Source: Escherichia coli
GTDB lineage: Bacteria > Pseudomonadota > Gammaproteobacteria > Enterobacterales > Enterobacteriaceae
Reading direction: 5' to 3' (one strand)
NCBI RefSeq assembly: GCF_003334385.1
Contig: NZ_QOWN01000030.1
DNA: 57,197 nt
Below, one piece after another: positions 27,001 to 28,768 of the stretch (within the stretch, counting starts at the first letter, position 1; every line of letters begins with the position of its first letter). The position numbers were made by a program.

Positions 27001-28768
27001 CAGGTGATTATCTGGTACTGCATGATACAGGGGCATATGGCGCATCAATGTCATCCAACTACAATAGCCGTCCGCTGTTACCAGAAGTTCTGTTTGATAA
27101 TGGTCAGGCGCGGTTGATTCGCCGTCGCCAGACCATCGAAGAATTACTGGCGCTGGAATTGCTTTAACTGCGGTTAGTCGCTGGTTGCATGATGACTTGC
27201 CTCCAGCGACGGAGTTGACACTGAATGACGACGTACCAGCGTCGGACTAAAGACATTAGTGATTTCCGGGAGAGGGCGATTATCCGCCAGCGCCAAAGCC
27301 AGTTCGGCAGCCTGGGTCGCCATCGTCACGATTGGGTAACGCACGGTGGTCAGGCGCGGACGCACATAGCGTGACACCAGCACATCATCAAAGCCAATTA
27401 ACGAAATCTCACCCGGTACATCAATACCATTATCATTGAGAACGCCCATCGCACCCGCCGCCATTGAATCGTTATAACAGGCTACCGCAGTGAAATTTCT
27501 TCCTCGTCCCAAAAGCTCGGTCATTGCCTGTTCGCCGCCGCTTTCGTCTGGTTCGCCAAATGTCACCAGCCGGTCATTGGCCGCAATACCACTTTCAGCA
27601 AGGGCATCGTAATACCCTTGCAGACGATCTTCGGCGTCAGAAATAGAGTGGTTAGAGCACAGATAACCAATGCGGGTATGACCTTGCTGAATTAAATGAC
27701 GCGTTGCCAGCCAGGCACCGTAACGATCGTCCAGAGCAATACAACGGTTTTCAAAGCCAGGCAGGATACGGTTGATCAGCACCATACCGGGCATTTGTTT
27801 CATTAATGAGGCTAAATCAGCATCCGGGATCATTTTGGCATGGACGACCAACGCAGCACAGCGATGGCGGATCAGTTGCTCAATGGCCTGACGCTCTTTT
27901 TGTTCGTTGTGGTAACCGTTGCCAATCAATAAAAAATTACCGGTGTGATAAGCCACCTGTTCGACCGCTTTCACCATTGCACCGAAAAACGGATCGGAAA
28001 CATCACCAACGACCAGACCGACCGTTTCAGTGGTCTGCTGCGCCAGCGCACGGGCGTTGGCGTTCGGGTGATAGCTAAGAGACTCCATTGCACTATGCAC
28101 AGCCAGCCGGGAAGCTTCGCTGGCTTTGGGTGAATTATTAATGACGCGGGAAACGGTGGCGACTGAAACGCCTGCCAGTCGGGCTACATCCTTTATGGTC
28201 GCCATGAAAATACCTTAGTGGGTAAACGCTTACATTCTTTCAGTGTTACGGAAAACGCCCGTTGGTTCAAGGGGTGGCGTGTTTTCATCGTGGGAATGTG
28301 AGCCAAACGCAAATAAGTAAGACAAAAAAAGAGATTGCAAACCTTTGGTTACACTTTGCGAAACGCTGTTGCGATTGACCGCTGGTGGCGTTTGGCTTCA
28401 GGTTGCTAAAGTGGTGATCCCAGAGGTATTGATAGGTGAAGTCAACTTCGGGTTGAGCACATGAATTACACCAGCCTGCGCAGATGCGCAGGTTTTTTTT
28501 GCCGGTCATCAATCTGTAACAGTAACCGACAATTTACACACCTCGTTGCATTTCCCTTCATTCCTTTGCGTTTTCTCGCTGGCGAAGAGTCGTCGTGCAG
28601 ACCACAATCAAGATCCCAGAGGTATTGATTGGTGAGATTATTCGGTACGCTCTTCGTACCCTGTCTCTTGCACCAACCTGCGCGGATGCGCAGGTTTTTT
28701 TTCGCACCTAATTTACTGTCGCTCGCGTTCTTTATCTCGTGTAATCTCCCTCCATTCGCTTTTACTGA

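What the first reader, a model, noticed from the sequence alone, without database searches (positions are those of the whole stretch)
28419..28702. Tandem paralogous sRNAs OmrB and OmrA directly upstream of aas
Two sRNA genes share nearly identical 5' ends (CCCAGAGGTATTGAT) and terminator hairpins but differ in the central region. The OmrA terminator ends only about 90 bp before the aas start codon. The pair is known in E. coli and acts on outer-membrane protein mRNAs; the sequences here are intact.
Basis: established knowledge. Interest (0 to 1): 0.25.

Follow-up and report, generated by a model that had tools for sequence, protein, structure and literature searches.

The report
Known E. coli sRNA genes omrB/omrA

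Summary
The observation and the interpretation are both confirmed. Rfam's OmrA-B model (RF00079) hits exactly 28419-28500 (86.1 bits) and 28615-28702 (96.6 bits); the gathering score is 40 bits. The whole 583-bp galR-aas intergenic region is 100% identical to E. coli K-12 MG1655. The two intervals coincide base for base with the annotated genes omrB (b4445, 82 nt) and omrA (b4444, 88 nt). The copies share 20 of their first 21 nt and 32 of their last 35 nt (terminator plus U8 tail) and differ in the middle. The omrA 3' end lies 87 nt before the aas ATG. The region is present in 5424 of 5426 complete E. coli genomes. The same galR | omrB-like | omrA-like | aas layout recurs across Enterobacterales, with compensatory changes in the terminator stem. 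The published promoter features are all present: -12T in omrB, the sigmaS-favouring -12C in omrA, and the OmpR-responsive upstream boxes. The 5' seed pairs with the published sites in K-12 ompT, ompR and cirA. Mechanism, from the literature and transferable by sequence identity: these are Hfq-dependent, EnvZ-OmpR-induced, trans-acting repressors of outer-membrane protein, iron-receptor, motility and biofilm mRNAs, with feedback on ompR. Novelty: already known. Interest is low.

The parts
27174..28205 (-). galR coding sequence, divergent left neighbour of the sRNA locus
   Evidence: 343-aa ORF. It is collinear with K-12 b2837 at about 99.9% identity.
28340..28377 (+). omrB upstream activator region (-79 to -42): AACCTTTGGTTACACTTTGCGAAACGCTGTTGCGATTG, containing the OmpR-responsive boxes
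   Evidence: GGTTACACTTTGCG and CTGTTGCGATTG are conserved upstream of the galR-proximal copy in 22 tandem loci and most single-copy loci. T-75 (28344) and A-68 (28351) are the bases whose mutation impaired OmpR activation in PMC13425233. OmpR binding itself was not tested here.
28407..28412 (+). omrB -10 hexamer TAAAGT (-12T, sigma70 type)
   Evidence: Read from the sequence relative to +1 at 28419. The TA.AGT / TA.A.T pattern is conserved across species. The role of -12T is as described in PMC12692685.
28419..28500 (+). omrB, 82-nt sRNA gene: seed nt 1-21 = 28419-28439; central hairpin; terminator 28473-28494 plus T8
   Evidence: RF00079 at 86.1 bits, E 2e-15. 100% identical to K-12 b4445. 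Terminator scan. Fold of -26.6 kcal/mol, z -2.9.
28514..28582 (+). omrA upstream regulatory region: conserved blocks CTGTAACAG (28514-28522), AATTTACACACCTCGTTGCATTT (28531-28553), CATTCCTTTGCGTTTTC (28559-28575) and GCTGG (28578-28582)
   Evidence: These blocks are conserved upstream of the aas-proximal copy across tandem loci and differ from the omrB blocks. This agrees with the four conserved omrA-promoter regions reported in PMC13425233. Which proteins bind them is inferred, not tested.
28603..28608 (+). omrA -10 hexamer CACAAT, with the -12C that makes the promoter sigmaS-dependent
   Evidence: Read from the sequence relative to +1 at 28615. CCACAATCAAGAT is nearly invariant in Enterobacteriaceae. 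The -12C determinant is as reported in the literature (PMC12692685).
28615..28702 (+). omrA, 88-nt sRNA gene: seed nt 1-21 = 28615-28635; central hairpin 28644-28660; terminator 28675-28696 plus T8
   Evidence: RF00079 at 96.6 bits, E 6e-18. 100% identical to K-12 b4444. Terminator scan. Fold of -29.5 kcal/mol, z -2.7, with the 5' 15 nt unpaired.
28703..28789 (+). 87-nt omrA-aas spacer with a conserved -10-like TGTAAT (28740-28745), TGTCGC 17 nt upstream (28717-28722) and the aas Shine-Dalgarno GGGAG (28780-28784)
   Evidence: Alignment of this spacer from 31 loci. CTCGT.TAATCT and GGGAGTTG are conserved in Enterobacteriaceae. Reading TGTAAT as the aas promoter is inference only, since no transcription-start data were used.
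28790..30949 (+). aas coding sequence (719 aa), followed by lplT at 30942-32135
   Evidence: ORFs. Collinear with K-12 b2836 and b2835.

Best explanation
Window 28419-28500 is omrB and 28615-28702 is omrA. They are two paralogous, independently transcribed, Hfq-dependent, trans-acting small RNAs of E. coli. Each has its own activator-dependent promoter, driven by EnvZ-OmpR. The omrA promoter additionally needs sigmaS because of a -12C. The omrB promoter is sigma70-type and also responds to multicopy RstAB. Each gene ends in a strong intrinsic terminator with a U8 tail. The shared, single-stranded 5' end (CCCAGAGGUAUUGAU.GGUGA) base-pairs at or near the ribosome-binding sites of many mRNAs, including ompT, cirA, fecA, fepA, ompR-envZ, csgD, flhDC and flgM. 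This pairing blocks translation and promotes RNase E decay, and repression of ompR closes a negative feedback loop. The divergent central parts give each sRNA some specific targets. What is shown here: identity of sequence, coordinates, synteny, structure, promoter motifs and seed complementarity. What is taken from the literature and transferred by 100% sequence identity to the K-12 genes: expression, Hfq dependence and target repression.
For: The Rfam CM hits are full-length and far above threshold. The whole intergenic region is 100% identical to K-12, where the intervals are annotated as b4445 omrB and b4444 omrA. The region is present in 5424 of 5426 complete E. coli genomes, at 99% identity or more in 5304 of them. 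There are 48 further RF00079 hits in 32 Enterobacterales loci, lying between galR and aas wherever the locus reaches those genes. The terminator helix is 100% paired in 46 distinct sequences, with 3 pairs changed on both sides; 0 of 500 shuffles reach the observed covariation score and all slid registers collapse. A central hairpin is kept in nearly all homologues despite sequence turnover. The promoter motifs, the -12T/-12C difference, and T-75/A-68 match the published descriptions. The seed pairs with K-12 ompT (+2..+21, -19.3/-17.8 kcal/mol, reached by 2-4 of 300 shuffled seeds). It also pairs with the ompR Shine-Dalgarno region (-16.9/-19.0 kcal/mol, reached by 14 and 1 of 300). These sites match PMC2588501.
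Against: Nothing substantive. The generic sigma70 consensus scan found no promoter in 28150-28850. That is expected for activator-dependent promoters with poor -35 elements and 4/6 -10 hexamers. The cirA duplex energy (-13.6 kcal/mol) is not better than shuffled seeds (64-85 of 300), although its position matches the genetically proven -10 to -19 site. Expression in the strain the window comes from was not and cannot be measured here.
Confidence: 0.98

Rival explanations
1. The two hairpin-plus-T-run elements are cis-acting leaders or attenuators of the downstream aas-lplT operon rather than independent trans-acting RNA genes.
For: The omrA terminator ends only 87 nt before the aas ATG on the same strand. 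That short spacing (63-190 nt) is kept across Enterobacterales. There are weak sub-threshold matches to the Leu_leader model over both elements (27.8 and 23.2 bits against a gathering score of 50).
Against: The Leu_leader matches are far below threshold and cover only the terminator-like part. Both elements have their own conserved promoters and strong terminators. The literature shows they are individual transcription units that act in trans (PMC13425233; PMC2588501). A conserved -10-like element lies downstream of the omrA terminator, which suggests aas has its own promoter.
Confidence: 0.01
2. The pair is a chance or selfish intergenic repeat (REP/BIME-like or IS remnant) without its own function.
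For: It is a direct repeat in an intergenic region. In some other E. coli strains IS elements have landed between the two copies.
Against: There are only two copies in the window and a median of one locus per E. coli genome. The locus is fixed in position between galR and aas across an entire bacterial order. The conservation pattern is that of a structured RNA: invariant seed-proximal GGUG/CACC, a covarying terminator and a variable centre.
Confidence: 0.005
3. The region encodes small proteins, for example the mechanical ORFs 28461-28628 (55 aa) or 28595-28711 (38 aa), and the RNA signal is secondary.
For: Such ORFs exist in the six-frame list.
Against: They span the non-conserved centres and the inter-gene spacer and cross intrinsic terminators. 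The cross-species alignment shows indels of non-triplet length in the central region. K-12 annotates no coding sequence here.
Confidence: 0.005

Closest known systems
E. coli K-12 omrA (b4444, formerly rygA/sraE) and omrB (b4445, formerly rygB); Rfam RF00079 OmrA-B
   Same: Everything testable is the same. Both genes, their promoters and the whole galR-aas intergenic region are 100% identical in sequence. Lengths (88 and 82 nt), order, orientation and the 87-nt distance to aas also match.
   Different: Nothing within the locus. The host strain is not K-12: the window carries ETT2 type III secretion genes where K-12 has IS2H, and a 47-bp duplication in yqeF. Neither touches the omr locus.
Single-copy Omr sRNAs of other Enterobacterales (for example Yersinia, Serratia, Dickeya, Erwinia)
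   Same: Same 5' seed, same terminator, and the same position next to aas and/or galR wherever the fetched DNA reaches those genes.
   Different: They have one gene instead of two, longer or different central regions, and promoters of either type. The window has the full two-gene Enterobacteriaceae arrangement.
Other OmpR-controlled or envelope-directed Hfq sRNAs that use a 5' seed (MicF, MicC, RybB)
   Same: They work alike: a 5'-end seed pairs at the translation initiation region of outer-membrane protein mRNAs, with Hfq dependence and an intrinsic terminator with a U-tail (established knowledge; discussed in PMC2588501).
   Different: They are unrelated in sequence and belong to different Rfam families and loci. 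None was detected in this window.

Membership tests
OmrA-B sRNA family (Rfam RF00079) | Covariance-model score at or above the curated gathering threshold (40 bits) over the full model | tested here: met
   96.6 bits (28615-28702) and 86.1 bits (28419-28500), both covering model positions 1-87 of 87.
OmrA-B sRNA family (Rfam RF00079) | Conserved 5' seed CCCAGAGGUAUUGAU.GGUGA at the transcript's 5' end | tested here: met
   Both copies carry it, with 20 of 21 nt shared. In homologues, columns 17-20 (GGTG) are invariant; columns 1-15 are invariant by construction of the search.
OmrA-B sRNA family (Rfam RF00079) | Rho-independent terminator CCUGCGC-NGAU-GCGCAGG followed by a long U-tail (Hfq-binding module) | tested here: met
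   9-pair stems plus T8. The helix is 100% paired, with compensatory changes at 3 pairs across 46 distinct homologues.
OmrA-B sRNA family (Rfam RF00079) | Location in the galR-aas intergenic region, same strand as aas, with omrB proximal to galR and omrA proximal to aas | tested here: met
   ORFs and K-12 collinearity. The same layout is seen in 30+ Enterobacterales loci.
OmrA-B sRNA family (Rfam RF00079) | Identity with the experimentally defined E. coli genes (88-nt OmrA, 82-nt OmrB) | tested here: met
   100% identity and identical ends. The lengths are as in PMC12692685.
OmrA-B sRNA family (Rfam RF00079) | EnvZ-OmpR-activated promoters; omrA sigmaS-dependent through -12C, omrB with -12T | tested here: met
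   The sequence determinants are present: CACAAT with -12C at 28603, TAAAGT with -12T at 28407, and the conserved upstream boxes including T-75 and A-68. Actual OmpR or sigmaS dependence cannot be tested with these tools.
OmrA-B sRNA family (Rfam RF00079) | Seed complementarity to validated targets (ompT +12..+20, cirA -19..-10, ompR 5' UTR at the ribosome-binding site) | tested here: met
   Duplex predictions against the K-12 target regions land on the published sites. The energies for ompT and ompR beat nearly all shuffled seeds; the cirA energy is not distinguishable from shuffles (PMC2588501).
OmrA-B sRNA family (Rfam RF00079) | Hfq binding, RNase E-dependent target decay and in vivo repression | not testable with these tools
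   Known for the identical K-12 sequences (PMC2588501, PMC12692685). Transferred here by sequence identity only.

The most novel reading that the evidence does not exclude
The short spacing between the omrA terminator and aas is conserved: 87 nt here, 81-104 nt in most Enterobacteriaceae, 63-190 nt across the order. It might reflect functional coupling rather than mere synteny. For example, partial read-through of the omrA terminator, or promoter interference, could put the aas-lplT lysophospholipid-repair operon partly under OmpR/sigmaS control. That would complement the recently proposed role of OmrA/B in fatty-acid and envelope-lipid control. Nothing here tests this idea. A conserved -10-like TGTAAT downstream of the terminator argues that aas simply has its own promoter.
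Probability: 0.08. Interest if true: 0.3.

Novelty: already known. Interest (0 to 1): 0.04.

Why it matters
It matters only as correct annotation. PGAP-annotated E. coli genomes usually leave this intergenic region without features, so recognising omrB and omrA fills a routine gap. The genes themselves, their regulation and their targets have been studied since 2001-2006 and were reviewed in 2025 (PMC12692685). The copy in this window is identical to the reference one.

Tried and rejected
1. The generic sigma70 promoter scan of 28150-28850 found no sites. I did not take this as evidence against promoters, because both promoters are activator-dependent, with weak -35 elements and 4/6 -10 hexamers. 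The published and conserved -10 elements were located by hand.

2. A permissive Rfam scan of 27900-29100 gave only sub-threshold Leu_leader and TeloSII_ncR49 matches. I rejected these as terminator-shaped chance hits.

3. The 15-mer seed scan of 100,044 species genomes returned many single hits in unrelated phyla such as Bacteroidota, Thermoplasmatota and cyanobacteria. These are expected chance matches for 15 bases in 298 Gb. They had no aas or galR nearby and were not used.

4. The invariance of alignment columns 1-15 across homologues was not counted as evidence, because those sequences were selected for an exact match there.

5. The cirA seed duplex energy is no better than shuffled seeds. 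It was kept only as positional agreement with the literature.

6. The mechanical ORFs overlapping the sRNAs were rejected as coding sequences.

7. A literature search for a link between omrA and aas-lplT transcription found only a deletion study and a paper on the LplT-Aas complex that mentions omrA once and was not read.

Full report
**Observation**

The sequence between the divergent galR gene (27174-28205, minus strand) and aas (28790-30949, plus strand) contains two plus-strand elements at 28419-28500 and 28615-28702.

- They share a 24-nt 5' block with one mismatch (28416-28439 / 28612-28635) and a 35-nt 3' block at 91% identity (28466-28500 / 28668-28702).
- The 15-mer CCCAGAGGTATTGAT occurs only at these two places in the 57-kb window. 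About 0.04 matches are expected even with two mismatches allowed.
- The 32-nt terminator pattern likewise occurs only twice.
- Both elements end in a 9-pair G+C-rich hairpin followed by T8.
- Their central parts, 26 and 32 nt, do not align with each other.
- The second element ends 87 nt before the aas ATG.

**Identity**

- A scan of the whole window against Rfam 15 gives only three hits above gathering thresholds. Two are OmrA-B (RF00079) at exactly these intervals: 96.6 bits (E 6e-18) and 86.1 bits (E 2e-15), both full-length against a 40-bit threshold. The third is a tRNA-fMet at the window's end.
- The 583-bp intergenic region occurs in 5424 of 5426 complete E. coli genomes, at 99% identity or more in 5304.
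- It is 100% identical to K-12 MG1655.
- In the K-12 record the corresponding intervals are annotated as ncRNA omrB (b4445, 82 nt, next to galR) and omrA (b4444, 88 nt, next to aas). The window copies match them base for base.
- PGAP-annotated genomes mostly leave the region unannotated.

**Structure**

- OmrA folds with nt 1-15 unpaired, a GGUG/CACC-closed central domain with a GGUACG...CGUACC hairpin, and the terminator (-29.5 kcal/mol, z -2.7).
- OmrB has the same plan with a different central hairpin (-26.6 kcal/mol, z -2.9).

**Relatives elsewhere**

The hits in unrelated phyla are chance matches.
- 32 of the Enterobacterales loci from that sample were scanned with Rfam. Thirty-one of them gave 48 further RF00079 hits, each beginning at the seed; the 32nd is cut off just after its seed.
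- tblastn with the window's GalR, Aas, LplT and LysA shows the sRNAs between galR and aas wherever the locus reaches those genes.
- In the tandem loci with the usual ~190-275-bp spacing, the galR-proximal copy is shorter and OmrB-like and the aas-proximal copy is OmrA-like.
- On a 50-sequence alignment (46 distinct), the terminator helix is 100% paired, with three pairs changed on both sides. GGUG/CACC is invariant. No shuffle of 500 reaches the observed covariation score or paired fraction, and all slid registers collapse to 18-54% paired.
- The central region turns over in sequence, but a hairpin is retained in nearly every homologue.
- The invariance of columns 1-15 is by construction of the search and is not counted as evidence.

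**Promoters**

- Relative to +1 at 28419, omrB has TAAAGT at -12..-7 (28407-28412, -12T). It also has a conserved upstream block, GGTTACACTTTGCG...CTGTTGCGATTG (28347-28377).
- Relative to +1 at 28615, omrA has CACAAT (28603-28608, -12C). It has different conserved blocks: CTGTAACAG at 28514-28522, AATTTACACACCTCGTTGCATTT at 28531-28553 and CATTCCTTTGCGTTTTC at 28559-28575.
- These match the literature. Both promoters are activated by EnvZ-OmpR. The -12C makes omrA almost fully sigmaS-dependent, while omrB carries the canonical -12T (PMC12692685).
- The two promoters have distinct conserved boxes. T-75 and A-68 of PomrB (28344 and 28351 here) are needed for activation by OmpR and by multicopy RstAB (PMC13425233).
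- The generic sigma70 scan found nothing, as expected for such activator-dependent promoters.

**Mechanism**

Because the sequences are identical to the experimentally characterised K-12 genes, the published mechanism transfers directly.

- These are Hfq-dependent, trans-acting sRNAs. Their conserved 5' end pairs near translation initiation regions, repressing translation and promoting RNase E-dependent decay.
- The ompR-envZ operon is among the targets, which gives negative feedback (PMC2588501; PMC12692685).
- As a check, nt 1-21 of each window sRNA were hybridised in silico to the K-12 ompT, cirA and ompR initiation regions.
- The best duplexes fall on the published sites: ompT early coding region around +12..+20, the ompR Shine-Dalgarno region, and cirA around -19..-10.
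- For ompT and ompR the energies were matched by only 1-14 of 300 shuffled seeds. For cirA the energy is not distinguishable from shuffles, so only the position agrees.

**Rival explanations**

- A cis-acting leader or attenuator of aas is suggested only by proximity and by far-sub-threshold Leu_leader matches. It is contradicted by the separate conserved promoters, the strong terminators and the literature.
- A selfish repeat is contradicted by copy number and by fixed synteny across the order.
- Small ORFs are contradicted by non-triplet indels in the centre and by the terminators they would have to cross.

**The omrA-aas spacer**

- Its length is 87 nt here, 81-104 nt in most Enterobacteriaceae and 63-190 nt across the order.
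- It contains a conserved CTCGT-[GA]TA[AC]T-CT element (TGTAAT at 28740-28745 here) and the aas Shine-Dalgarno sequence.
- This most simply indicates that aas has its own promoter just after the omrA terminator.
- The conserved synteny with aas has already been noted in connection with a proposed role of OmrA/B in envelope lipid composition (bioRxiv 10.64898/2026.06.26.734639).
- Functional coupling by read-through is not excluded but is untested.

**Verdict**

The finding is real, correctly interpreted and entirely known. The locus is a base-perfect copy of the reference omrB-omrA pair. Interest is low.

Noticed in passing
window 19328-19422: There is a perfect 47-bp tandem duplication (2.0 copies, 100% match) inside yqeF (acetyl-CoA C-acetyltransferase, K-12 b2844). 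It shifts the frame and splits the gene into ORFs 19168-19389 (73 aa) and 19383-20399 (338 aa). A 44-nt query across the novel junction finds no match in any of 5426 complete E. coli genomes. The duplication is therefore either private to the source strain or an assembly artefact.
   Followed up: partly
window ~199-8401: The window is about 99.9% identical to K-12 over most of its length. Here, however, it carries about 8.2 kb of ETT2 type III secretion genes (PrgH/EprH, EscU, YscQ, SctT, EscJ family and others) where K-12 has only IS2H and flanking pseudogenes. This stretch is 100% identical to E. coli strain SCU-104. The source is therefore not K-12.
   Followed up: partly
other E. coli genomes, equivalent to window 28494-28501 and 28549-28552 (loci L128, L129): In strain 47258 an IS200/IS605 element sits immediately after the omrB terminator T-run. 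In strain 300709 an IS3-family element is inserted 63-66 nt upstream of the omrA start. That position lies inside the conserved omrA upstream region, so the insertion probably uncouples omrA from its upstream activator sites.
   Followed up: partly
locus L082 (Siccibacter colletis) 3958-4445, minus strand: This galR-aas region holds a single Omr gene with an OmrA-type transcript and an omrA-type promoter (TGTAACAG..., CACACCTGGTTGCA..., CCACAATCAAAGT). No recognisable omrB gene or promoter is present. This is an apparent exception to the published statement that in single-copy species the omrB promoter is always the one retained (PMC13425233). Single-seed loci L035 (Serratia bockelmannii), L051 (Dickeya oryzae) and the unnamed L090, L100 and L114 also carry the promoter type of the aas-proximal copy.
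   Followed up: partly
loci L032 (Pantoea stewartii) 2747-4879 and L061 (Pantoea MAG) 647-2770: In Pantoea the two Omr copies are about 2 kb apart instead of about 200 bp, so something has been inserted between them. The upstream copy is unusually short (75-76 nt) and lacks a clear central hairpin. In Serratia, 2.5-7.7 kb separates galR from the sRNAs.
   Followed up: no
window 28717-28745: A conserved -10-like hexamer TGTAAT (28740-28745) has a conserved TGTCGC 17 nt upstream. Both lie between the omrA terminator and aas and may form the aas-lplT promoter. The -35-position element is conserved but unlike TTGACA, which may mean an activator or an alternative sigma factor is involved.
   Followed up: no
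window 57121-57197, minus strand: An initiator tRNA-Met gene (metV in K-12) abuts the window's right end.
   Followed up: yes
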